DNA from: a virus
Length of the DNA stretch: 64,000 nt
Virus genome (UHGV): UHGV-0066004
Strand: one strand, 5' to 3'
Shown here: piece after piece, positions 3,343-10,070 of the stretch
Layout: the number at the start of each line of letters is the position of its first letter
How positions within the stretch are numbered: the first letter of the stretch is position 1
Made by a program: the position numbers and the translations under genes
Notes under the pieces: model-generated
What the model saw: only the letters and a program-made list of their open reading frames with translations
The model's database searches: none
What the model was told of the DNA's origin: nothing

Positions 3343-3418
3343 TGGAGAATCCGAAGGGACTCGAACCCTTATAAACCTGTTTTGCAGACAGGCACATAGC
3401 CATTTCTGTCACGGATTC
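3343..3418 (-). tRNA. tRNA-Cys(GCA)
   Basis: T-arm GGGTTCGAGTCCC, 7-bp acceptor pairing GAATCCG/CGGATTC, anticodon loop CTGCAAA, encoded CCA; hand-folded. Confidence 0.65.
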
Positions 3419-3422
3419 AAAT

Positions 3423-3515
3423 TGGAGGAAGATACCAGACTTGAACTGGTACACCGATTTCTCAGCTACTGGCAGTTTAGCAAACTGCTCCCTTACCTTT
3501 TAGGGTTAATCTTCC
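3423..3515 (-). tRNA. tRNA-Ser(GCT), type II
   Basis: 93 nt, long variable arm, T-arm CCAGTTCAAGTCTGG, acceptor GGAAGAT/ATCTTCC, loop TTGCTAA. Confidence 0.6.
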
Positions 3516-3517
3516 AT

Positions 3518-4252
3518 TTATTTCTGTAATGCGTTCTTCATTTCTGGTGTTGCAATAGTGTCAATTACACCAGTTTTACAAGCATCATCAAACCAGTCTG
3601 GTAAGATACCTGCTAAGAACCCATTGATATTCGTTTTAAGGTACTCTGCAATAAGGGCAGCTTCTTCTTCAATCATCTGCACAACTTCATCTGCATAAGC
3701 TGTAATCTTTGAGATACCTTCATTAATCTTACTGACAGCTTGGTTAGCTAAATCAGAAACAGTATCAAGACCCTTGTCAATAGCGTCTTGTAAGTCACTT
3801 AATACATCGTTAACACTCTCTAGTGTACTGTTAATCGTATCAATAGCTTTTTGACCATATTCTGTAGCAACACCCATAATACCACTGAACGGTGTACAAC
3901 CAACTTGTTCTCCTGCTGCACCCATAACATTGGAATATCCCTTTGCTACCTGCATACGTGATGAAAACTCATCAATAGATTTTTGACCGTAGTCTGTCAG
4001 GGTCTTAGTAGTTGCTGTAGTGCTTGTAAGGCTTGTTGTAAAGCTGTTTAGAAGGACTGTTGTAAGTCCAGCAGCAACAAGCTTATCCTTTACTGTAGGG
4101 TCTGATACAGAGCTAATAGAGCTTACAAGTGATGTAGAGGCAGCTACGGTTCCACCGAGAACTGCTGCACCAGTAATAAGGGGGTTAGAAAACCCTTTAC
4201 CGGTTTTTAAGAGATTGAAAATCTCCTTACCTTGTTCTGTCATCTCTTTCAT
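3518..4252 (-). CDS. Ser/Thr-rich hypothetical protein inside tRNA cluster
   Basis: ORF in track; start trimmed to ATG at 4252 (AAAGGTG SD) because the upstream part overlaps tRNA-Phe. Confidence 0.45.
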   Translation of the reverse strand: MKEMTEQGKEIFNLLKTGKGFSNPLITGAAVLGGTVAASTSLVSSISSVSDPTVKDKLVAAGLTTVLLNSFTTSLTSTTATTKTLTDYGQKSIDEFSSRMQVAKGYSNVMGAAGEQVGCTPFSGIMGVATEYGQKAIDTINSTLESVNDVLSDLQDAIDKGLDTVSDLANQAVSKINEGISKITAYADEVVQMIEEEAALIAEYLKTNINGFLAGILPDWFDDACKTGVIDTIATPEMKNALQK

Positions 4253-4268
4253 TAAGCACCTTTGAAAT

Positions 4269-4345
4269 TGGTAGTCCAGTGGGATTTGAACCCTCTTCTC
4301 ATGTTTTTCAGACACGCGCTTTAACCATATAAGCTACTTGGACTA
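4269..4345 (-). tRNA. tRNA-Phe(GAA)
   Basis: T-arm GGGTTCAAATCCC, acceptor TAGTCCA/TGGACTA, loop CTGAAAA. Confidence 0.6.
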
Positions 4346-4350
4346 TAAAT

Positions 4351-4426
4351 TGGGGTGACCTACGGGATTTGAACCCGTATAGACCATGTTCACAGCATGG
4401 GTCATTACCGTTTATGATAAGGCCAC
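4351..4426 (-). tRNA. tRNA-His(GTG)
   Basis: T-arm ACGGGTTCAAATCCCGT, loop CTGTGAA, encoded CCA. Confidence 0.65.
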
Positions 4427-4457
4427 ATTTAAGGACTCTCGTAAGAATCCTTAGAAG

Positions 4458-4533
4458 TGGCAGCGGCATAAGGATTTGAACCTTAATAAGACAGCTTCAG
4501 AGACTGCTGCATTGCCAGTTATGCTATGCCGCT
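4458..4533 (-). tRNA. tRNA-Gln(CTG)
   Basis: T-arm TAAGGTTCAAATCCTTA, acceptor AGCGGCA/TGCCGCT, loop CTCTGAA. Confidence 0.55.
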
Positions 4534-4538
4534 AAATT

Positions 4539-4617
4539 TGGTACTCCATATCGGATTCGAACCGATACATAACACAGATTTTAAGTCTGGCCTCTCTGCC
4601 AATTGGAGTAATGGAGC
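4539..4617 (-). tRNA. tRNA-Leu-like (anticodon TAA?), atypical
   Basis: Perfect T-arm ATCGGTTCGAATCCGAT, discriminator A, Leu-type D-loop AATTGGCAGAG, loop CTTAAAA, but no long variable arm in my fold. Confidence 0.35.
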
Positions 4618-4619
4618 AT

Positions 4620-4695
4620 TGGCGGGGGATGTTGGAATTGAACCAACTTCTTCGATTTCAAAGACCGAGGTTTTAACCTTGTAAACTAATCCCCT
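4620..4695 (-). tRNA. tRNA-Gln(TTG)
   Basis: T-arm GTTGGTTCAATTCCAAC, loop CTTTGAA, encoded CCA. Confidence 0.55.
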
Positions 4696-4703
4696 TTAAA
4701 TCT

Positions 4704-5261
4704 TTACTTTCTCAGTGGATGAATAAAGAATGCCAACATAACTCTTTCCCTTGAGAATGCTCTTTCTTCTGGGACAACACTTTTTAGTTTCCATCCAATA
4801 TAAATTCTCCAGTAAAATTGTTTACCAAAGATTTTAATTGATGGGATAAAAGCGAATAATCCCCAAGCATTACTGTTCCACATTAGGAGATAACCTGTCT
4901 GATTATCTTCAGGGTCAGAACTTACGTTGATATTACCTTTCCACTTAGTAACATCTTTTACATCTCTTCCTAATACATGGTAAGAGAAGTTATAAGCTTT
5001 GTTTCTCCAGAGCCATCCGACTCTTTGCATGTAGACACCTAGTTTACCAATCCATCTGATATTAGCCCATCTTTTAACGTGACCTTCATCACCATCAATT
5101 GGGTTGTCATATGTCTCCATCCATCTGAACCCGAAAGGTAAGTGTCCTTTCTTCTCACTGTAGAATGGAACTACGAAAGGTGCTAAGATAACTGCTAGTA
5201 TTGCTGCAAGTGGTTCTAGCAAAGCTAAGAAAATCCATGAAGCATATTTTAAGTATCTCAT
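4704..5261 (-). CDS. membrane protein (hydrophobic N-terminus), function unknown
   Basis: 185-aa ORF between tRNA sub-clusters; N-terminal TM-like segment. Confidence 0.5.
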   Translation of the reverse strand: MRYLKYASWIFLALLEPLAAILAVILAPFVVPFYSEKKGHLPFGFRWMETYDNPIDGDEGHVKRWANIRWIGKLGVYMQRVGWLWRNKAYNFSYHVLGRDVKDVTKWKGNINVSSDPEDNQTGYLLMWNSNAWGLFAFIPSIKIFGKQFYWRIYIGWKLKSVVPEERAFSRERVMLAFFIHPLRK

Positions 5262-5500
5262 TGTCTAACCCTCGTAAGGAGGTAAGCATTATTACTTGTT
5301 TCTGAGCTTTCTGGTAACATTGTCTCAAAATTGACACTTTTAAGTTGTCTTCCACCAAAGCAATGACCAATAAATCTTTCTACTTTTATTGGGTCGCATT
5401 CCCATCCGACTTTTAAGAAAATGTGGGTATCTATAGTGGGAACCCTTACAAACTCAATACTATTGGGATTTTCATGTTCAACGACGATTAATGTTTGCAT
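5258..5500 (-). CDS. hypothetical protein
   Basis: 80-aa ORF with ATGA-type overlap onto downstream gene. Confidence 0.4.
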   Translation of the reverse strand: MQTLIVVEHENPNSIEFVRVPTIDTHIFLKVGWECDPIKVERFIGHCFGGRQLKSVNFETMLPESSETSNNAYLLTRVRQ

Positions 5501-5518
5501 AAATTCCTCTTGCTTATC

Positions 5519-5594
5519 TGGCGCAGGATAAGGGATTCGAACCCCTATTAACAGTTTCGTAGACTGTTGCTCTATCCATTTGAACTAATCCTGC
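5519..5594 (-). tRNA. tRNA-Arg(ACG)
   Basis: T-arm GGGGTTCGAATCCCT, acceptor GCAGGAT/ATCCTGC, loop CTACGAA. Confidence 0.65.
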
Positions 5595-5599
5595 AAAAT

Positions 5600-5677
5600 T
5601 GGTGTTCCAAGACGGATTCGAACCGTCACTAATACAAGGTTTGAGCTTGCATCCTCTGCCAATTGGGATACTGGAAC
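5600..5677 (-). tRNA. tRNA-Leu-like (anticodon CAA?), atypical
   Basis: T-arm GACGGTTCGAATCCGTC, D-loop CAATTGGCAGAG, loop CTCAAAC, discriminator A; short variable arm. Confidence 0.35.
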
Positions 5678-5678
5678 A

Positions 5679-5753
5679 TGGTACTCACTAAAGGACTTGA
5701 ACCTTTTTCTTCATCTTGTAAGGGTGGTGTTTTACCATATAAACTAAGCGAGT
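5679..5753 (-). tRNA. tRNA-like gene with disrupted anticodon stem (possible pseudo-tRNA)
   Basis: Good acceptor, D-arm GTTTATATGGTAAAAC and T-arm AAAGGTTCAAGTCCTTT, but I cannot pair an anticodon stem. Confidence 0.3.
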
Positions 5754-5848
5754 GTGAAAGAGGTCTGAAGTTGTGCCGCTAACTCAACTCCGTGGAATTT
5801 GTTACGGTCTTCAGTTGACACCAGCGGTCTTTCACTTGACCTCTGAAT

Positions 5849-5925
5849 TGGTGCTGCTCACAGGACTCGAACCCGCATTTCCATCCTTACAAGGGATGTG
5901 TAATAGCCAATTATACGAAAGCAGC
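5849..5925 (-). tRNA. tRNA-Thr(TGT)
   Basis: T-arm GCGGGTTCGAGTCCTGT, anticodon stem CATCC/GGATG, loop CTTGTAA. Confidence 0.65.
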
Positions 5926-5932
5926 ATTAATT

Positions 5933-6007
5933 TGGAGCATCCAGAGGGAATCGAACCCTCAACCTCAGTTTGGAAGACTGTAATTTTCCCGTTTAAACTA
6001 TGGATGC
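5933..6007 (-). tRNA. tRNA-Gly(TCC)
   Basis: T-arm GAGGGTTCGATTCCCTC, acceptor GCATCCA/TGGATGC, loop CTTCCAA. Confidence 0.6.
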
Positions 6008-6013
6008 ACTAAT

Positions 6014-6089
6014 TGGTGGAGAAGCAGGGAATTGAACCCTGTACTTAAGTTTGCAAAACTTATGTTTTAACCATGTAAACTACATCCCC
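6014..6089 (-). tRNA. tRNA-Ala(TGC)
   Basis: T-arm CAGGGTTCAATTCCCTG, anticodon stem TAAGT/ACTTA, loop TTTGCAA. Confidence 0.6.
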
Positions 6090-6095
6090 AATGTA

Positions 6096-6171
6096 TGGTA
6101 CAGGTGGAGGGAATTGAACCCATCGTCTTACTGATTAAGAGTCAGCCGCATAACCATTTTGCTACACCTGC
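6096..6171 (-). tRNA. tRNA-Lys(CTT)
   Basis: T-arm GGGTTCAATTCCC, loop CTCTTAA; paralogous to the Lys(TTT) gene at 7323. Confidence 0.55.
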
Positions 6172-6178
6172 ATTAATT

Positions 6179-6256
6179 TGGTAGGAGACAAGGGATTCGA
6201 ACCCTCAAACACCAACTTCTAAGGATGGTAGGTTTACCAATTACCGTCAATCTCCC
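6179..6256 (-). tRNA. tRNA-Leu-like (anticodon TAG?), atypical
   Basis: T-arm GAGGGTTCGAATCCCTT, D-loop TAATTGGTAAA, loop CTTAGAA, discriminator A; short variable arm. Confidence 0.35.
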
Positions 6257-6512
6257 ATTAAATCTTTTTAGAGAACTTCTAAGAACCTAAGCAACAAGGT
6301 TCCACAACAAGCTGTAATAACCTTAGAAGCCCTCTAAAAAGACCTAAAAAGGTCTTTGCATAGTCTTGTTTAATCCGGTGACTAGAACCTTTGGAGAGCT
6401 TGATATTATCTCTTCTCCGTGACACATACTAGGTGCTTTACTGTGCTTGTACGACAATACACGAGGGATACCAAAGCAACATCCGAATGAAGCTTGGCTT
6501 TAAACCTTATTA

Positions 6513-6602
6513 GGCGGTAAGTAAAGGAGTCGAACCCTCACCGTATCTCTACAGTGGCAACTGTTTTCAAGACAGTTTGGCTACCATTAGCCGCTACCTA
6601 CC
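6513..6602 (-). tRNA. tRNA-Ser(TGA), type II
   Basis: 90 nt, T-arm GAGGGTTCGACTCC, anticodon stem ACTGT/ACAGT, loop CTTGAAA, long variable arm. Confidence 0.6.
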
Positions 6603-6615
6603 CCTAATAAGACTT

Positions 6616-6698
6616 TGGCATGGGACGGAGGAGTTGAACCCCTTTGAAACGGTTTTGGAGGCCGTTGCTCATGCCTTAGAGTCTTAACATCGTCCCAT
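6616..6698 (-). tRNA. tRNA-like, 83 nt, anticodon unresolved
   Basis: Perfect acceptor ATGGGAC/GTCCCAT and T-arm GGGGTTCAACTCC; internal AACGG/CCGTT hairpin with 9-nt loop; cannot assign anticodon. Confidence 0.3.
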
Positions 6699-6840
6699 AT
6701 TATAATTCGAAGCTTACCGTATTATCTCAACACTGTAAAGCCCCTTCTCAGATTATTTACATGTTCTGGAAAACATGAGATACAGACCACCTCCCTACAG
6801 GAAGACCCGCTTAGGTCGTCTAAGTAATCTGCTAACTAAT

Positions 6841-6917
6841 TGGCACACCCTACAGGATTCGAACCTGTAACTAACGATTTAGAAGACCGTTGCTCTATCC
6901 AATTGAACTAAGGGTGC
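6841..6917 (-). tRNA. tRNA-Arg(TCT)
   Basis: T-arm ACAGGTTCGAATCCTGT, loop CTTCTAA, encoded CCA. Confidence 0.65.
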
Positions 6918-7164
6918 ATTAATCTTTAAAGACTCTCTTAGAAAGCCCTTAAAGATGCCCACCTTATTAATCATACCGTGGGCTAGTACGCCAAATTCTT
7001 TGATGAGGGATTGGAAGACCTCACTGGTGTTTAGCCTATCAAGCTACTGCCAGAAAAACATTGTCGTTTGCATTTATTTTAAATTTGCAAAATAGACGCT
7101 ACGCAACGAAAACTAAGGTTACTATAAAGTAGTCACATCTCAATGTCAACAACTTTATTGAAAT

Positions 7165-7240
7165 TGGTACTGGTAGGTGGAATCGAACCACCGATGTTCC
7201 CTTATCAGGGGAGTGTTATAACCTTCTTAACTATACCAGC
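7165..7240 (-). tRNA. tRNA-Ile(GAT)
   Basis: T-arm GGTGGTTCGATTCCACC, loop CTGATAA. Confidence 0.6.
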
Positions 7241-7241
7241 T

Positions 7242-7318
7242 TGGAGGTTCAGATGGGAATCGAACCCACATTCATAGGGCTTATGAGACCCTTGCATTAC
7301 CTTATCTGCGACTGAACC
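7242..7318 (-). tRNA. tRNA-Met(CAT), elongator-like
   Basis: T-arm TGGGTTCGATTCCCA, loop CTCATAA, G1-C72 paired. Confidence 0.6.
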
Positions 7319-7322
7319 ATAT

Positions 7323-7398
7323 TGGTAGAAGTGGAGGGATTCGAACCCATCGCCTGTCAGATTAAAAGTCTGCTGCATCACCATTCTGCTACACTTCC
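7323..7398 (-). tRNA. tRNA-Lys(TTT)
   Basis: T-arm GGGTTCGAATCCC, loop CTTTTAA. Confidence 0.55.
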
Positions 7399-7403
7399 AT
7401 TAA

Positions 7404-7546
7404 ATTATCTTTGTAGATAAGCTACCCAGACTTGCTTAAGGTCTGTAGCGATGTGCCTTGTTGGGTTTAAATCTAGAATTTACCCTTTCACCCTTTGTGG
7501 TCGCATACTCACAGGTAAGCTTAATAACTTATCTACAAAGATAATT
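7404..7546. repeat. pair of inverted 18-bp hairpin elements (TTATCTTTGTAGATAA / TTATCTACAAAGATAA) about 107 bp apart
   Basis: Exact reverse-complement arms at 7404-7421 and 7529-7546, each arm itself a 5-bp stem hairpin. Confidence 0.7.
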
Positions 7547-7589
7547 ACCAGACCGTTGTTTATCATCTTAAGTGCTACCATTACACCAA

Positions 7590-7680
7590 CTCGACATCTG
7601 CCGAGTGAAGGAATCGAACCTTCGCCTTTTCTTTACCGGAGAAATAGATTGTTTAAGTTTTGCTGTAAACGGTCTTCTGT
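7590..7680 (-). pseudogene. tRNA fragment or pseudo-tRNA (T-arm only)
   Basis: Perfect T-arm GAAGGTTCGATTCCTTC with acceptor-like 3' strand but no matching 5' acceptor strand and no CCA. Confidence 0.3.
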
Positions 7681-7826
7681 AAATTTGTTGAGCCAGACCA
7701 AGTTTAAATTTTCAAAATTAAATTGGCTTGAAATTTCATACGTTCTTGCTGTATTTGGTCTTCTGCTCCTTTAAAGGATACTCGTAAGGACCCTTTAAGG
7801 GAGGGGCTAAATAGCCCTCTCAAAAT

Positions 7827-7904
7827 TGGCGGTTACGAAGGGATTTGAACCCTCATCATCTCCCGTGACAGGGGAGTATTTTAACCAAATTAAACTACAT
7901 AACC
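7827..7904 (-). tRNA. tRNA-Asp(GTC)
   Basis: T-arm GAGGGTTCAAATCCCTT, anticodon stem CTCCC/GGGAG, loop CTGTCAC. Confidence 0.65.
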
Positions 7905-7909
7905 TTTAT

Positions 7910-7997
7910 TGGTGTGCCGTGTAGGAGTCGAACCTACCGAGTCTCAATGACAAGGGATTTACAGTCCCCACCGCTACCATCTACGGGATAACGACAC
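7910..7997 (-). tRNA. tRNA-Tyr(GTA), type II
   Basis: 88 nt, T-arm GTAGGTTCGACTCCTAC, loop CTGTAAA, long variable arm. Confidence 0.6.
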
Positions 7998-8006
7998 ATT
8001 TAAATT

Positions 8007-8083
8007 TGGCGGTTAGTCAGGGATTCGAACCCTGTGCCATTCGCTTAACAGGCGACCGCACATACCTTATATGCTTCCTAACC
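8007..8083 (-). tRNA. tRNA-Asn(GTT)
   Basis: T-arm CAGGGTTCGAATCCCTG, loop CTGTTAA. Confidence 0.55.
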
Positions 8084-8160
8084 TTAATACATTGCCAGAC
8101 CGTGTTTTTTCTTTTATCCGCAAAAAGTATTTTGTTGCTGAATACGGTCTTCTGCAAAAT

Positions 8161-8237
8161 TGGAGGCGGGTGCAGGAGTCGAACCTGCCGATACCATGCT
8201 AATGAGACATGTGAGACGCCCTTTCTCTATACCCGCA
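8161..8237 (-). tRNA. tRNA with CAT anticodon (Met, fMet or Ile2)
   Basis: T-arm GCAGGTTCGACTCCTGC, loop CTCATTA, unpaired 1-72 position. Confidence 0.45.
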
Positions 8238-8327
8238 ATTCTCAATGACCAGACCAAATATCTTCTTTGTCCGATTTCGTGTCAGATGAGTAGATTAAGT
8301 TTGCTGTAATTGGTCTTCTGTCAAAAC

Positions 8328-8405
8328 TGGCGTTCCAGAAGGGATTTGAACCCTCAGATATCCACTTTGAAAGAGTGGTGACTTTACCATTTTGTCTACT
8401 GGAAC
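8328..8405 (-). tRNA. tRNA-Glu(TTC)
   Basis: T-arm GAGGGTTCAAATCCCTT, anticodon stem CCACT/AGTGG, loop CTTTCAA. Confidence 0.65.
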
Positions 8406-8412
8406 ATTAATT

Positions 8413-8489
8413 TGGTCTCTGTTGGAGGACTTGAACCTCCGGCCTTACCGCCCCAAACGGAACGCTCTACCAAGCTGAGCTAAACAGAG
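8413..8489 (-). tRNA. tRNA-Pro(TGG)
   Basis: Canonical D-arm GCTCAGCTTGGTAGAGC, T-arm GGAGGTTCAAGTCCTCC, loop TTTGGGG. Confidence 0.6.
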
Positions 8490-8654: not shown

Positions 8655-10070
8655 TTACCAGATATAACGGTCAATCATTACTGCTTTGAGCATTACACTG
8701 ATTGGGTCAAACTTCTCACCACCAAGCAGAGCTTTTAAAGTAGCTGGAGAAAAACCAGATACCATTGCTACACCGTTATCCTTAACAGACACTTCGCAAG
8801 TACCATTACGGTTTGCTAAGTACCAGAATACCAGTTGAGGCATTTCGTATCCAGCTTTTTTGTACTTACTCTGAATTGCTTCAAAGTTTGTACGACCGTT
8901 AGCTCCATCAACCTGATTGAACTCCATATCGGAGAAGATGATAAGCTTACTTGGCATATCTTTCTGAGTCAAGTTGTTTCTTTTACCTGTTTCAAGAATA
9001 CGGTCAAAAGCTGCTTGTAAGTTAGTTGAGCCATATTCAACGTGTCGCATCACCTGACGATGACGGTTTCGTAAATCACCACTCAGTTCGATGAAGTGAG
9101 GGTTTGTTGAATAAACCATCAACTCATTCTTAAAGCAACCTGTATTACGTTCTGCTACATACAATGCAAGTGAAACACCAATATCAAGAGCAGTAATTGA
9201 ACCAAAATTCACCCAAGACATTGAGCTTGAAACATCAGACATACACAAGATGTTTTCACCCTCTGCCATCCAGTTTGGTAGTGCTTTCCACTGCTCATTA
9301 GCAACATCTGCATTACCATACTTAACAGATTTAATTACATCGTATGGGTAAACAGCACCAGCATTAATCTTAGTCTCACCCTTTGATAAGGACTCGATGT
9401 AAGCTTTGTAGCGTTCTCCATCTTTGCGGTTAAACAGTTTTTGGTAACGTGCAGCAGCAAGTGAAGGAATCTTACTGTAGTCAATCTTACCAAACTCATT
9501 AGCAGAGATTTTTTGCTCAACTGTATCAGATAGTGCAGACAACAGTGTGCGGTACTCTTTCTCACTCAAGTTGGCAAACTTGCAGAAACGTTTTACAAAC
9601 TGCTTATGACGTGGTTTGACTCGTGGTAACCACTTAGCCGCCAAACCTGCTGTTGCAGGGTCTAGTAATGCTGCTTCTAGATGTTTGAAGGCATCTGTCT
9701 CGAAACAAGTACCTACGAAGATTTTGAAGTCATCAAAACGACCAAGTTCTGCAATCTTATCCATAATGCGAAGAACCTGCGTAGGCTCTAAAACTTTGTC
9801 TTCAATCGCTTGAAGTAAAACAGTTCTGAAGGCTTTACGCTCACCCATACCTTCTCGTACATCTCGCATATGAAGCAAAATACGAACTGCAACATCAACA
9901 TCCTCACGCAAAGCTTTGTAGAACAGGTCTGGTAAGATTTCTACGTTGCTACGGCTTGAACCAGCAGCTTTGTAAAAGTCTACAAGAGCAGACATTGATG
10001 AAGTATGGTTTACAGCACCATTTTCAGTTCGACCTGCATGAAGGTGCGCATGTTTAAATAATTCGCTCAT
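8655..10070 (-). CDS. von Willebrand factor A (vWA) domain protein, possibly TROVE/Ro-like
   Basis: 471-aa ORF; C-terminal MIDAS-type DxSxS (DVSSSM) and hydrophobic beta strands (LIIFSDMEF); TROVE assignment is a guess. Confidence 0.55.
   Translation of the reverse strand: MSELFKHAHLHAGRTENGAVNHTSSMSALVDFYKAAGSSRSNVEILPDLFYKALREDVDVAVRILLHMRDVREGMGERKAFRTVLLQAIEDKVLEPTQVLRIMDKIAELGRFDDFKIFVGTCFETDAFKHLEAALLDPATAGLAAKWLPRVKPRHKQFVKRFCKFANLSEKEYRTLLSALSDTVEQKISANEFGKIDYSKIPSLAAARYQKLFNRKDGERYKAYIESLSKGETKINAGAVYPYDVIKSVKYGNADVANEQWKALPNWMAEGENILCMSDVSSSMSWVNFGSITALDIGVSLALYVAERNTGCFKNELMVYSTNPHFIELSGDLRNRHRQVMRHVEYGSTNLQAAFDRILETGKRNNLTQKDMPSKLIIFSDMEFNQVDGANGRTNFEAIQSKYKKAGYEMPQLVFWYLANRNGTCEVSVKDNGVAMVSGFSPATLKALLGGEKFDPISVMLKAVMIDRYIW

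What the first reader, a model, noticed from the sequence alone, without database searches (positions are those of the whole stretch)
3343..8489. Cluster of about 27 tRNA genes with several atypical members
About 22 tRNAs fold convincingly by hand (Cys, Ser x2, Phe, His, Gln x2, Arg x2, Thr, Gly, Ala, Lys x2, Ile, Met x2, Asp, Tyr, Asn, Glu, Pro). Five are unusual. Three carry Leu-type D-loops (AATTGGCAGAG / TAATTGGTAAA), discriminator A73 and Leu anticodons (TAA, CAA, TAG) but appear to lack the long variable arm. One (5679-5753) has intact acceptor, D and T arms but no pairable anticodon stem. One 83-nt gene (6616-6698) has a perfect acceptor and T-arm with an internal hairpin carrying a 9-nt loop. 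There is also a free-standing T-arm fragment (7590-7680). These could be decoys, tRNA-derived small RNAs, or substrates meant to resist host anticodon nucleases.
Basis: partly seen in the sequence, partly recalled or inferred. Interest (0 to 1): 0.6.

Follow-up and report, generated by a model that had tools for sequence, protein, structure and literature searches.

The report
Phage tRNA island with odd members
This is the known tRNA gene cluster of a Felix O1-type phage; its odd members are conserved, probably working tRNAs of unusual shape, and the "T-arm fragment" belongs to a tRNA-mimicking small RNA that probably partners the Ro60-like protein encoded next door.

Summary
The window is a Felixounavirus (96.7% identical to sequenced relatives). 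ARAGORN tRNA genes on the minus strand at 3343-8489, covering 19 amino acids. The uncalled 83-nt gene (6616-6698) is a conserved tRNA-Trp(CCA)-like RNA, which completes the set of 20.

- **Leu tRNAs:** all three really lack the long variable arm (4-7 nt). They keep A73 and the Leu D-loop. They recur in every Ounavirinae genus examined and in a Vibrio phage, with compensatory stem changes.
- **Val(UAC):** it has a weak but real anticodon stem, with a conserved 30:40 mismatch.
- **Trp-like gene:** it has 10 nt instead of 2 between the acceptor and D stems, and the fold covaries strongly.
- **"T-arm fragment":** it is the tRNA-like domain of a 138-nt RNA with YrlA-type architecture. It is one of four paralogous stem-bulge RNAs that share an invariant CAGCAA motif.
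- **Upstream gene:** it encodes a structural Ro60 homologue.

The cluster itself is already known. The unusual shapes and the four Y-like RNAs are unannotated. A tmRNA-like tag-coding RNA without a tRNA-like domain also lies inside the cluster.

The parts
3343..8489 (-). tRNA island as a whole: 26 ARAGORN-called tRNAs, one expanded Trp-like tRNA, four Y-like RNAs, one tmRNA-like RNA and three small ORFs
8655..10070 (-). Ro60-like protein gene (471 aa; Pfam DUF2828 + DUF7788), directly upstream of the island on the same strand
   Evidence: gp130 of phage Bas63
8516..8636 (-). two sigma-70-like promoters (TTGACA-17-TAATAT and TTGACA-18-TAAAGT) between the Ro60-like gene and tRNA-Pro
8413..8489 (-). 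tRNA-Pro(tgg)
8328..8405 (-). tRNA-Glu(ttc)
8246..8323 (-). Y-like stem-bulge RNA 1: outer stem UGAC/GUCA, AGA bulge, AGACCAA/UUGGUCU helix, UUACAGCAA motif
8161..8237 (-). tRNA(cat) with an unpaired 1:72 position (initiator-like)
   Evidence: 28.5 bits
8092..8157 (-). Y-like stem-bulge RNA 2: outer stem UUGC/GCAA, motif UUCAGCAA; fold z = -2.8
8007..8083 (-). tRNA-Asn(gtt)
7910..7997 (-). tRNA-Tyr(gta), with the normal bacterial long variable arm
7827..7904 (-). tRNA-Asp(gtc)
7690..7768 (-). Y-like stem-bulge RNA 3: outer stem GAGC/GCUC
7545..7682 (-). Y-like RNA 4, with YrlA-type order: basal stem, V hairpin (UUUCU/AGAAA), T arm (GAAGG-UUCGAUU-CCUUC), closed acceptor-like hairpin (ACUCGGC-AGAU-GUCGAGU), D arm (GUG-UAAUGGUAG-CAC), then the 3' strand.
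7323..7398 (-). tRNA-Lys(ttt)
7242..7318 (-). tRNA(cat), annotated tRNA-Ile(CAU) in KhF1 and tRNA-Met elsewhere
7165..7240 (-). tRNA-Ile(gat)
7121..7149 (-). near-consensus sigma-70 promoter TTGACA-17-TATAGT (11 of 12) inside the island
6918..7116 (-). tmRNA-like RNA without a tRNA-like domain. The tag frame at 7071-7039 reads ANDNVFLAVA then stop. It also has a stop-codon hairpin, a pseudoknot-like stem and a hairpin with loop UGAUUAAUAA.
6841..6917 (-). tRNA-Arg(tct)
6616..6698 (-). tRNA-Trp(CCA)-like gene, 83 nt: A1-U72, G73, CCA end, 10-nt connector GAUGUUAAGA before the D stem, D arm CUC-UAAGGCAU-GAG, C31.A39 mismatch (9-nt loop)
6513..6602 (-). tRNA-Ser(tga), long variable arm
6179..6256 (-). 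tRNA-Leu(tag), 4-nt variable region, conserved U30.U40 mismatch
   Evidence: (40 bits)
6096..6171 (-). tRNA-Lys(ctt)
6014..6089 (-). tRNA-Ala(tgc)
5933..6007 (-). tRNA-Gly(tcc)
5849..5925 (-). tRNA-Thr(tgt)
5679..5753 (-). tRNA-Val(tac); anticodon stem CCACC/GAUGA with C27.A43 and C30.A40
   Evidence: (55.8 bits)
5600..5677 (-). tRNA-Leu(caa), 5-nt variable region
   Evidence: (44 bits)
5519..5594 (-). tRNA-Arg(acg)
4704..5500 (-). two overlapping small ORFs (5500-5258 and 5261-4704) interrupting the island; hypothetical proteins in relatives
4620..4695 (-). tRNA-Gln(ttg)
4539..4617 (-). tRNA-Leu(taa), 7-nt variable region
   Evidence: (47.5 bits)
4458..4533 (-). tRNA-Gln(ctg)
4351..4426 (-). 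tRNA-His(gtg)
4269..4344 (-). tRNA-Phe(gaa)
3518..4252 (-). ORF of 244 aa interrupting the island (hypothetical protein in relatives)
3423..3515 (-). tRNA-Ser(gct), long variable arm
3343..3418 (-). tRNA-Cys(gca)

Best explanation
The region is the conserved tRNA island of a Felix O1-type phage. It is probably transcribed from host-type promoters as polycistronic precursors and cut into individual RNAs by host tRNA-processing enzymes.

It supplies a full set of 20 amino-acid specificities, biased towards codons that this AT-rich phage uses far more than E. coli does.

The three leucine tRNAs have lost the long variable arm but keep A73, A14, A15 with U48, G18G19 and A20a. Enterobacterial LeuRS is reported to use these elements and not the arm, so the tRNAs are most likely charged with leucine and used in translation.

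The Val tRNA and the expanded Trp-like tRNA are also most likely functional. They carry lineage-specific mismatches at the bottom of the anticodon stem.

The 'T-arm fragment' is not a gene remnant. It is the tRNA-like domain of a Y RNA of the YrlA type. It is one of four paralogous stem-bulge RNAs that most likely bind the Ro60-like protein encoded immediately upstream, forming a phage Ro-Y RNP.

Shown: sequences, folds, conservation, covariation, the structural homology of the protein, and the co-occurrence of the RNA motif with the gene. Inferred: aminoacylation, expression, processing, and protein-RNA binding.
For: Identity and synteny: 96.7% identical to Felixounavirus genomes that annotate the same tRNAs.

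tRNA calls.

Short-arm Leu tRNAs occur in Felixounavirus, Suspvirus, Mooglevirus, Kolesnikvirus, Pectobacterium phage Wc4, Yersinia phage P778 and Vibrio phage phi-pp2. In an alignment of 13 of them, 19 of 21 consensus pairs keep pairing through changes on both sides. The LeuRS identity rules come from a review.

Trp-like gene: 11 distinct orthologues, 99.5% of cells paired, 8 of 19 pairs with compensatory changes, and slid controls at 31-51% paired with none. The anticodon CCA is invariant, with G73 and a 1:72 pair.

Codon use: CTG is 17% of Leu codons and AGA is 28% of Arg codons in window ORFs.

Ro60-like protein: the AF2 model has pLDDT 88.7, and its 12 best PDB matches are all Ro60/TROVE structures (E down to 4e-8, TM up to 0.65). 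The same conclusion was published for Bas63 gp130.

Y-like RNAs: 4 copies against 0.02 expected. There are 61 distinct instances. The outer stems covary between paralogues, the inner GU/AC and AA/UU pairs covary, and CAGCAA is invariant. The closed acceptor hairpin of RNA 4 has three unrelated, fully paired versions. The arm order equals that of YrlA.

Association: the T[ATG]CAGCAA motif occurs 19 times on the gene strand near seven distant DUF2828 genes, against 3.9 expected. Some sit in tandem arrays directly downstream of the gene, with different stem sequences.

Precedent: a phage Ro60 that binds phage Y-like RNAs is described experimentally.
Against: There is no expression, processing, charging or binding evidence for any of these RNAs here.

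The Rfam YrlA model does not match RNA 4, even in a 171-nt search at E up to 10. The YrlA 5' motif GNCGAA(N)G is absent.

The Ro60-like protein matches Pfam DUF2828 and DUF7788 but not the TROVE family among matches at E<=0.01, and it has no sequence-level match to any PDB chain.

The Trp-like gene fails ARAGORN and the Rfam tRNA model. Its 10-nt connector has no known precedent in the review consulted. Its single-sequence fold is not better than shuffles (z = -1.4).

In this phage the Val anticodon stem has only 3 of 5 standard pairs.

Bas63 tRNA genes were mostly non-essential in the laboratory.
Confidence: 0.7

Rival explanations
1. The atypical Leu, Val and Trp-like genes are adaptations against host tRNA-targeting defences. 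Their altered shape (no long arm, mismatches at 30:40 and 31:39, expanded connector) would let them escape anticodon nucleases or tRNA-modifying toxins, or let them act as decoys. This can coexist with normal decoding.
For: The mismatches next to the anticodon loop are conserved while neighbouring pairs covary. The PhageMaP preprint on Bas63 notes that phage tRNAs are thought to provide resistance to defence systems made of tRNA nucleases, and reports that the neighbouring Ro60-like gene counters the ppl defence system.
Against: No nuclease is known to me that depends on the Leu variable arm or on the 30:40 pair. Nothing in the sequence identifies a target. Codon supplementation alone explains the anticodon set.
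Confidence: 0.2
2. The four AGAAGACC...GGUCUGG elements are not protein-binding small RNAs. They would be processing or stability hairpins of the tRNA precursor, or scars or targets of the homing endonucleases that move in and out of this island. Their position next to the Ro60-like gene would be coincidental.
For: Relatives carry HNH endonuclease genes inserted in the island. Other repeated hairpins with a UUACGAG loop also lie between the tRNA genes. The single-sequence folds of three of the four elements are not better than shuffles.
Against: A conserved single-stranded CAGCAA motif and a fixed 3x1 internal loop are not expected of simple spacers. RNA 4 carries a complete tRNA-like domain in the YrlA order. 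Motif-plus-stem elements recur beside DUF2828 genes of phages only 45-55% identical to this protein, and there the stem sequences differ.
Confidence: 0.15
3. The atypical genes are decaying pseudogenes left over from duplication and deletion in a rapidly rearranging island.
For: The Trp locus is polymorphic, with 83-86-nt, 71-nt and canonical 76-nt forms in different relatives. In this phage the Val gene carries an extra mismatch compared with KhF1.
Against: The anticodons are invariant. Stems are maintained by compensatory changes across genera. All three Leu genes are present in every relative examined. The short Leu(caa) is 95-100% identical in about 250 genomes.
Confidence: 0.05
4. Element 7682-7545 is a circularly permuted tRNA gene (3' part before 5' part), as in some algae, that is rearranged into a working tRNA-Thr(GGU).
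For: The order anticodon-like arm, T arm, acceptor 3' strand, acceptor 5' strand, D arm is that of a tRNA permuted at position 26/27.
Against: There is no CCA or processing site between the two acceptor strands. The connecting loop varies from 4 to 8 nt and the stem from 5 to 7 bp. The anticodon-like loop is 6 or 7 nt in close relatives and lacks U33. From established knowledge, bacteria lack the splicing endonuclease that resolves permuted tRNAs.
Confidence: 0.03

Closest known systems
tRNA gene cluster of Felix O1 and other Ounavirinae
   Same: Same position, order and content. The sequence is 95-97% identical to many deposited genomes, and 25-26 tRNAs are annotated in the records examined, including three tRNA-Leu.
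   Different: None of the records examined annotates the Trp-like gene, the four stem-bulge RNAs or the tmRNA-like RNA. None comments on the missing Leu variable arm.
Class II bacterial tRNA-Leu, and arm-less tRNA-Leu of animal mitochondria or engineered E. coli variants
   Same: Leu anticodons, A73, the D-loop AAUUGG(C/U)AGA and a U before the T stem. The review reports that E. coli variants without the arm are still leucylated, and that mitochondrial tRNA-Leu lacks the arm.
   Different: These are natural tRNAs of phages infecting bacteria (E. coli, Salmonella, Erwinia, Yersinia, Vibrio) with 4-7-nt variable regions. [quoted passage not shown]
YrlA-type bacterial Y RNAs with Ro60 (Rsr), including the Thermus phage phiLo Ro60 with its two Y-like RNAs
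   Same: RNA 4 has the same arm order (5' strand, V hairpin, T arm, closed acceptor-like hairpin, D arm, 3' strand). It lies within 4 kb of a Ro60-fold gene on the same strand. Several Y-like RNAs occur per locus.
   Different: There is no match to the Rfam YrlA model and no GNCGAA(N)G motif. The protein is of the DUF2828/DUF7788 type, not Pfam TROVE. The basal stem has an AGA bulge followed by a CAGCAA motif. The RNAs are embedded among tRNA genes.
Class I RNAs of dictyostelid social amoebae (Rfam RF01414)
   Same: AAG, then a short terminal stem, then UUACAGCAA directly after the 5' strand, a variable middle, the 3' strand, then CUG. The Rfam model aligns full-length to three of the four phage RNAs (24.0, 17.5 and 12.8 bits).
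   Different: All scores are below the gathering score of 41.5. The only unbiased E-value is 0.49. The organisms are unrelated. The only named amoeba partner protein is an RRM protein. It could not be tested whether dictyostelids have a DUF2828 protein.
tmRNA (SsrA), one-piece and two-piece
   Same: A frame with no start codon that begins GCA AAC GA, has ten codons and ends in hydrophobic-A-(V/A)-A. The stop codon lies in a hairpin loop, followed by a covarying pseudoknot-like stem. The 5' GUUUUCG resembles the D-loop analogue.
   Different: No acceptor stem, T arm or CCA belongs to it. The promoter leaves no room for a 5' acceptor strand. ARAGORN calls no tmRNA in any of 122 loci, and Rfam scores are below threshold.

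Membership tests
tRNA (Rfam RF00005 / ARAGORN cloverleaf) | Score at or above the gathering threshold, and a cloverleaf called by ARAGORN | tested here: met
   Leu(taa) 47.5, Leu(caa) 44, Leu(tag) 40 and Val(tac) 55.8 bits against a threshold of 29. ARAGORN calls all four.
tRNA (Rfam RF00005 / ARAGORN cloverleaf) | The same criterion applied to the 83-nt Trp-like gene at 6616-6698 | tested here: not met
   ARAGORN does not call it even at a lowered threshold. The best clan match is tRNA-Sec at 23 bits, E 0.5. The four-helix fold is nevertheless supported by covariation.
Bacterial class II tRNA-Leu | Leu anticodon, discriminator A73, D-loop with A14, A15, G18G19 and A20a, and U48 | tested here: met
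   Read from the ARAGORN structures of all three genes and their relatives. The identity elements are as reviewed.
Bacterial class II tRNA-Leu | Long variable arm of 10 or more nucleotides forming a stem-loop | tested here: not met
   The variable regions are 7, 5 and 4 nt. The Ser and Tyr genes of the same island keep their long arms.
tRNA-Trp as recognised by bacterial TrpRS | Anticodon CCA, discriminator G73, and the first acceptor pair | tested here: met
   CCA is invariant in 11 orthologues. G73 is present. The 1:72 pair is A-U, G.U or G-C. The identity elements are as reviewed. Charging itself is not testable here.
YrlA Y RNA (Rfam RF02553) | Encoded within 4 kb of a Ro60 orthologue on the same strand | tested here: met
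   The RNAs at 8323-7545 lie 0.3-1.1 kb downstream of the gene at 10070-8655, on the same strand.
YrlA Y RNA (Rfam RF02553) | tRNA-like domain in the order V, T arm, closed acceptor-like stem-loop, D arm | tested here: met
   This holds for RNA 4 only. RNAs 1-3 lack it, as does YrlB in Salmonella.
YrlA Y RNA (Rfam RF02553) | 5' motif GNCGAA(N)G and a match to the covariance model | tested here: not met
   The motif is absent from the 5' region. There is no YrlA match at E up to 10 in either a 7-kb or a 171-nt search.
YrlA Y RNA (Rfam RF02553) | Binds Ro60 and tethers an effector such as PNPase | not testable with these tools
   This needs RNA immunoprecipitation or gel-shift experiments.
Ro60 / TROVE proteins | Ring-shaped HEAT-repeat domain followed by a vWA domain | tested here: met
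   Full-length Foldseek matches to Xenopus, human, Deinococcus and Thermus-phage Ro60 are ranked 1-12. vWA domains follow from rank 13.
Ro60 / TROVE proteins | Sequence-level membership (Pfam TROVE, or a match to solved Ro60 chains) | tested here: not met
   Pfam gives DUF2828 and DUF7788 only. phmmer against PDB sequences finds nothing relevant.
tmRNA | Tag reading frame without a start codon, beginning at a GCA/GCU resume codon and ending in a stop inside a hairpin | tested here: met
   There are 24 distinct 33-nt frames. Codons 1, 2, 3 and 10 vary only at the third position. A stop (TAA, TAG or TGA) is always codon 11. The helix around the stop covaries.
tmRNA | tRNA-like domain with acceptor stem, G3.U70, T arm and CCA on the same or a paired RNA | tested here: not met
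   ARAGORN calls no tmRNA. The only T-loops outside tRNA genes in the window are in RNA 4 and the Trp-like gene. None lies in the rest of a related genome.
Dictyostelid Class I RNA (Rfam RF01414) | Covariance-model score at or above the gathering threshold | tested here: not met
   Scores are 24.0, 17.5 and 12.8 bits against a threshold of 41.5.
Dictyostelid Class I RNA (Rfam RF01414) | Terminal 5-6-bp stem, conserved motif next to the 5' strand, conserved AAG and CUG ends | tested here: inconclusive
   All these features are present in the phage RNAs. However, the shared sequence is only about 9 nt plus 6 flanking nt, and the unbiased E-value is 0.49.

The most novel reading that the evidence does not exclude
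The four stem-bulge RNAs define the cognate RNA class of the DUF2828-type Ro60 paralogues that are widespread in large phages. The same signature (AAG, short terminal stem, UUACAGCAA, ..., stem, CUG) is what defines the Class I RNAs of dictyostelid amoebae, which have no known function and were reported as unique to that group. If the resemblance reflects a shared protein partner, an orphan eukaryotic RNA class and an orphan protein family would explain each other.
Probability: 0.15. Interest if true: 0.85.

Novelty: new variant of a known kind. Interest (0 to 1): 0.6.

Why it matters
The cluster itself is textbook phage biology. Three things in it are not.

**Arm-less Leu tRNAs.** Natural leucine tRNAs without the long arm, conserved in several phage lineages that infect enterobacteria and Vibrio, contradict the reviewed rule that only animal mitochondria lack the arm. 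They are a natural test of what LeuRS, EF-Tu, modification enzymes and tRNA-targeting toxins really need.

**Expanded Trp tRNA.** A conserved Trp tRNA with a 10-nt acceptor/D connector is invisible to standard tRNA finders. Counts of 'missing' specificities in phage tRNA sets are therefore unreliable.

**Candidate Y RNAs.** A published phage knockout study proposed that some annotated tRNAs of a sister phage are Y RNAs for its Ro60-like anti-defence protein. This analysis instead points to four specific unannotated RNAs, with a defined motif and stem geometry. That makes the proposal directly testable.

Tried and rejected
- **Intron-containing tRNA-Arg.** ARAGORN with introns and a lowered threshold called one at 7599-7830. 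I rejected it: it joins the T arm of RNA 4 to unrelated upstream sequence, and the acceptor strands do not pair.
- **Permuted tRNA gene** for 7682-7545. Rejected, see rivals.
- **Rfam YrlA model.** No match.
- **Sequence search of the Ro60-like protein against PDB.** Nothing relevant. Only the structure comparison worked.
- **Exact 15-mer scan of viral contigs for the Trp-like gene.** 85 loci, of which 61 were chance matches and 24 were real.
- **Motif scan of viral contigs for AGAAGACC-N5-CAGCAA.** Mostly single chance matches. Only Felixounavirus-size contigs had four copies.
- **Search for a tRNA-like partner of the tmRNA-like RNA.** No further T-loops in the window or in the remaining 25 kb of a related genome. 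No significant intermolecular pairing with any other RNA of the island (all z above -2).
- **AlphaFold-database fold search**, to ask whether dictyostelids have a DUF2828 protein. The library was unavailable.
- **The paper naming the four Class I RNA-binding proteins** is not held.
- **Literature searches** for phage tmRNA-like RNAs, DUF2828, and arm-less phage tRNA-Leu found no prior description in the held library. This does not prove that none exists.

Full report
**What the window is.** The 5.5-kb region is 96.7% identical to Felixounavirus genomes (LF82P3, KhF1 and more than 200 others). Related clusters exist in Suspvirus, Mooglevirus, Kolesnikvirus and unclassified Ounavirinae. Deposited annotations list 25-26 tRNA genes in the same order. 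The cluster as such is already known.

**Checking the observation.** ARAGORN finds 26 tRNA genes at 3343-8489, all on the minus strand. They cover 19 amino acids, with Trp missing. The Rfam tRNA model scores 24 of them above threshold. All but Ser(tga), which ends GCC, end in an encoded CCA.

**The three Leu tRNAs.** ARAGORN structures give variable regions of 7 nt (taa), 5 nt (caa) and 4 nt (tag). The Ser and Tyr genes of the same island keep long arms. All three have the following:
- A73;
- a 3-bp D stem with the loop (C/U)AAUUGG(C/U)A(G/A)A, giving A14, A15, G18G19 and A20a;
- a U immediately before the T stem.

A recent review states that E. coli LeuRS relies on A73, the A15-U48 pair, G18G19, A20a and D/T-loop tertiary pairs. 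It does not rely on the long arm, and arm-less variants remain active. [quoted passage not shown]

Short Leu tRNAs of 77-79 nt are present in every Ounavirinae genus sampled. They also occur in Yersinia phage P778 and in the KVP40-like Vibrio phage phi-pp2. Pectobacterium phage Wc4 has one short and one normal 87-nt Leu gene. In an alignment of 13 distinct short Leu tRNAs the consensus is a cloverleaf, and 19 of 21 pairs keep pairing through changes on both sides. By sequence similarity the caa species is essentially confined to Ounavirinae.

Window ORFs use CTG for only 17% of Leu codons, against TTA 23%, CTT 27%, TTG 15% and CTA 11%. They use AGA for 28% of Arg codons. From general knowledge, E. 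coli uses CTG for about half of its Leu codons and AGA rarely. The anticodon set therefore fits ordinary codon supplementation.

**tRNA-Val(tac), 5679-5753.** It scores 55.8 bits. Its anticodon stem is CCACC/GAUGA, with three standard pairs and C.A at 27:43 and 30:40. Relatives have four pairs. A mismatch at 30:40 (U.U or C.A) is kept in all genera while flanking pairs change. Leu(tag) has the same conserved U30.U40.

**The 83-nt gene, 6616-6698.** It is the missing Trp. Its features are:
- acceptor AUGGGAC/GUCCCAU, then G73 and CCA;
- a hairpin loop reading C-CUCCAAA-A, which is the E. coli-like Trp anticodon loop with C31.A39 unpaired;
- a D arm CUC-UAAGGCAU-GAG, preceded by 10 nt (GAUGUUAAGA) where tRNAs have two;
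- a T arm GGGG-UUCAACU-CCUC.

Orthologues occur in Felixounavirus, Mooglevirus, Wc4 and Yersinia phage P778. On 11 distinct sequences, 99.5% of cells pair and 8 of 19 pairs show compensatory double changes. Sliding the partners gives 31-51% paired and no compensatory changes.

CCA, U33 and A37 never vary, while positions 32 and 38 do. Kolesnikviruses carry a canonical 76-nt Trp gene, also with an unpaired 31:39. Suspvirus-type genomes carry a 71-nt form with a reduced D arm. A 2020 review of non-canonical tRNAs describes connectors of 0-2 nt but nothing like 10 nt, and it does not mention phages.

**The 'T-arm fragment'.** It lies inside a repeat family. Four elements (8323-8246, 8157-8092, 7768-7690, 7682-7545) share one layout:
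- a 4-bp outer stem;
- an AGA bulge opposite a single G;
- the helix AGACC(R)N/N(Y)GGUCU;
- a single-stranded N(U)(A/U/G)CAGCAA motif.

The signature occurs 4 times against 0.02 expected. In 61 distinct instances from relatives, the outer stems differ between paralogues but always pair (UGAC/GUCA, UUGC/GCAA, GAGC/GCUC, UUAC/GUAA). The inner pairs alternate GU/AC and AA/UU. CAGCAA is invariant.

The fourth element adds a hairpin, a T arm, a closed acceptor-like hairpin and a D arm. The acceptor-like hairpin exists in three unrelated, fully paired versions: ACUCGGC/GUCGAGU, ACACG/CGUGU and ACCCUUC/GAAGGGU. The first hairpin's loop is 6 or 7 nt, so it is not an anticodon loop. This order is the one described for YrlA, the tRNA-mimicking Y RNA found within 4 kb of Ro60 genes on the same strand.

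**The neighbouring gene.** The 471-aa product of 10070-8655 matches Pfam DUF2828 and DUF7788. An AlphaFold2 model built with 37 homologues has mean pLDDT 88.7. Its 12 best PDB matches are all Ro60 proteins, including the Ro60 of Thermus phage phiLo, and they cover the full length. vWA domains follow.

A 2024 preprint reached the same structural conclusion for the orthologue gp130 of phage Bas63. It showed that gp130 counters the ppl defence system, and it speculated that some annotated tRNAs might be Y RNAs. The phiLo protein binds two phage-encoded Y-like RNAs and host PNPase.

As an independent test, I examined seven DUF2828 genes only 45-55% identical to this one. The motif T[ATG]CAGCAA occurs 19 times on the gene strand within 4-6 kb, against 3.9 expected, and twice on the other strand. 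Tandem arrays lie directly downstream of the gene in three phages, and their terminal stems have different sequences.

The Rfam YrlA model does not match, and the YrlA 5' motif is absent. I therefore describe these as working like Y RNAs, not as members of the YrlA family.

**How it most likely works.**
- *Shown:* sequence features, folds, covariation, protein fold, and gene-RNA co-occurrence.
- *Inferred:* host RNA polymerase transcribes the island from the promoters at 8636-8516 and 7149-7121. Host RNase P and 3' processing release the tRNAs and, with them, the intervening small RNAs. The tRNAs top up decoding of A/U-ending codons. The four stem-bulge RNAs bind the Ro60-like protein. The tRNA-like domain of RNA 4 serves as the effector-binding module, as in other Ro-Y RNPs.

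**A resemblance I could not resolve.** The Rfam model for Class I RNAs of Dictyostelium aligns end to end with three of the four stem-bulge RNAs (24.0, 17.5 and 12.8 bits against a threshold of 41.5). Both families have AAG, a short terminal stem whose structure but not sequence is conserved, UUACAGCAA directly after the 5' strand, a variable middle, and CUG after the 3' strand. The unbiased E-value is only 0.49. I could not check whether dictyostelids encode a DUF2828 protein.

**A second RNA inside the island.** Downstream of the near-consensus promoter at 7149-7121 lies a 199-nt RNA whose fold beats all 200 shuffles (z = -4.0). It contains AAAUAAAU followed by GCA AAC GAC AAU GUU UUU CUG GCA GUA GCU UGA, which reads ANDNVFLAVA and stop. 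Rfam tmRNA models match weakly (29.2 and 15.2 bits).

The element is present, unannotated, in the following:
- Ackermannviridae, several siphoviruses and a Vibrio phage;
- at least 120 viral contigs;
- 656 of 5426 complete E. coli genomes, mostly on plasmids of about 90-100 kb. In the one I examined it lies between dam and tRNA-Asn, the arrangement I recall from phage P1.

Twenty-four distinct tag frames always have ten codons and a stop. Codons 1, 2, 3 and 10 vary only at the third position. The hairpin around the stop and a pseudoknot-like pairing (CCAA/UUGG against CCGA/UCGG) covary.

No acceptor stem, T arm or CCA goes with it. ARAGORN calls no tmRNA in any of 122 loci, and no spare T-loop exists in this phage. 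An Erwinia relative does have a 175-nt RNA with acceptor stem, T arm and GCCA immediately upstream of the promoter. A 2014 census of tmRNA genes listed phage copies only in mycobacteriophages and Bacillus phage G. How a tag frame without a tRNA-like domain could be used remains unexplained.

**Verdict.** The cluster is known. Its unusual members are real, conserved and largely undescribed variants of known kinds.

Noticed in passing
window 7149-6918 (minus strand): A promoter-driven RNA with a tmRNA-like tag frame (7071-7039, ANDNVFLAVA then stop), a stop-codon hairpin, a covarying pseudoknot-like stem and a hairpin with the conserved loop UGAUUAAUAA. It has no tRNA-like domain. Its fold has z = -4.0.
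   Followed up: partly
L003, L004, L005, L006, L098-L200, L323: The same tmRNA-like element occurs unannotated in Ackermannviridae, Deseoctovirus C1, Vibrio phage pYD38-A and at least 120 IMG/VR contigs. It also occurs in 656 of 5426 complete E. coli genomes: 150 chromosomal places and 554 places on plasmids, those listed being about 90-216 kb. In the one plasmid examined (L323) it lies between dam and tRNA-Asn, with tag ANDDLMMVAA. There are 13 tag variants, always ten codons.
   Followed up: partly
L010 5084-5261; L201 9009-9149; L011 about 5573-5686: Relatives carry long tRNA-like RNAs that ARAGORN does not call. In Erwinia phage FIfi106, one with acceptor stem, T arm and GCCA lies directly upstream of the promoter of the tmRNA-like RNA. 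Yersinia phage P778 has one with G3.U70 (Rfam tmRNA 18 bits). Wc4 has one with a UUCGAC motif. They are possible acceptor partners. No equivalent exists in this window.
   Followed up: partly
window 8149-8096, 8315-8250, 7674-7549: The Rfam model for Dictyostelium Class I RNAs aligns full-length to three of the four stem-bulge RNAs (24.0, 17.5 and 12.8 bits, all below threshold). They share AAG, stem, UUACAGCAA, stem, CUG.
   Followed up: partly
L324 5520-5990; L325 5580-6600; L201 8130-8900; L202 5950-6000: Stem plus U(A/U)CAGCAA elements sit in tandem directly downstream of distant DUF2828 genes. In Vibrio phage phi-pp2 one motif lies 28 nt upstream of the DUF2828 start codon, which could mean autoregulation.
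   Followed up: partly
window 7547-7399: A 149-nt element is enclosed by an 18-bp perfect inverted repeat (AUUAUCUUUGUAGAUAAG ... CUUAUCUACAAAGAUAAU). It has no counterpart in SUSP1, Sf13 or Michonne, so it is a variable insertion of unknown nature.
   Followed up: partly
window 7800-7769, 4455-4428, 6956-6922; also L010 about 5462-5490: A hairpin recurs with a loop around UUACGAG or UUCUAAGAG (for example CUUUAAAGGGUCCUUACGAGUAUCCUUUAAAG), placed just before tRNA or Y-like genes. One copy is annotated as a terminator in phage Michonne. It may be a processing or stability signal.
   Followed up: no
window 5848-5754: A 95-nt spacer between tRNA-Thr and tRNA-Val is 96-97% conserved in Suspvirus and Mooglevirus and folds into a long irregular hairpin (-30.7 kcal/mol). 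It contains UGAAGACCGUAACAAAUU, a partial look-alike of the Y-like 5' signature.
   Followed up: no
L007 2534-2938; L009 2943-3395; records: HNH homing endonuclease genes are inserted at different places in the tRNA island of relatives (SUSP1, Michonne, FO1a, heid and others). This window has none in the island.
   Followed up: no
L143, L174, L007 about 2430-2500: The Trp locus is polymorphic. Some Felixounavirus-size contigs and SUSP1 carry a 71-nt tRNA-Trp(CCA) with a reduced D arm instead of the 83-nt form. Kolesnikviruses carry a canonical 76-nt gene.
   Followed up: partly
window 8161-8237 and 7242-7318: There are two CAU-anticodon tRNAs. The first has an unpaired 1:72 position, as in initiator tRNAs, and scores just below the Rfam threshold (28.5 bits). 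The second is annotated as Ile(CAU) in one relative and Met in others, so the island may lack an elongator Met.
   Followed up: no
L003 about 820-1090: In Ackermannviridae the tmRNA-like element is followed by two T-arm-containing RNAs ending in CCA that ARAGORN does not call. One is a 69-nt D-armless tRNA-like RNA with a GAAA-capped 7-bp stem. The other is about 125 nt long.
   Followed up: no
L098-L200 (siphovirus and prophage contigs): Long hairpins with the conserved strands ACAGGUAAGAGCAUUG and CAGUGCUCUU(U/A)(U/C)CGUUGUGG flank or follow the tmRNA-like element, sometimes in several copies. This is another repeated structured module of unknown role.
   Followed up: no
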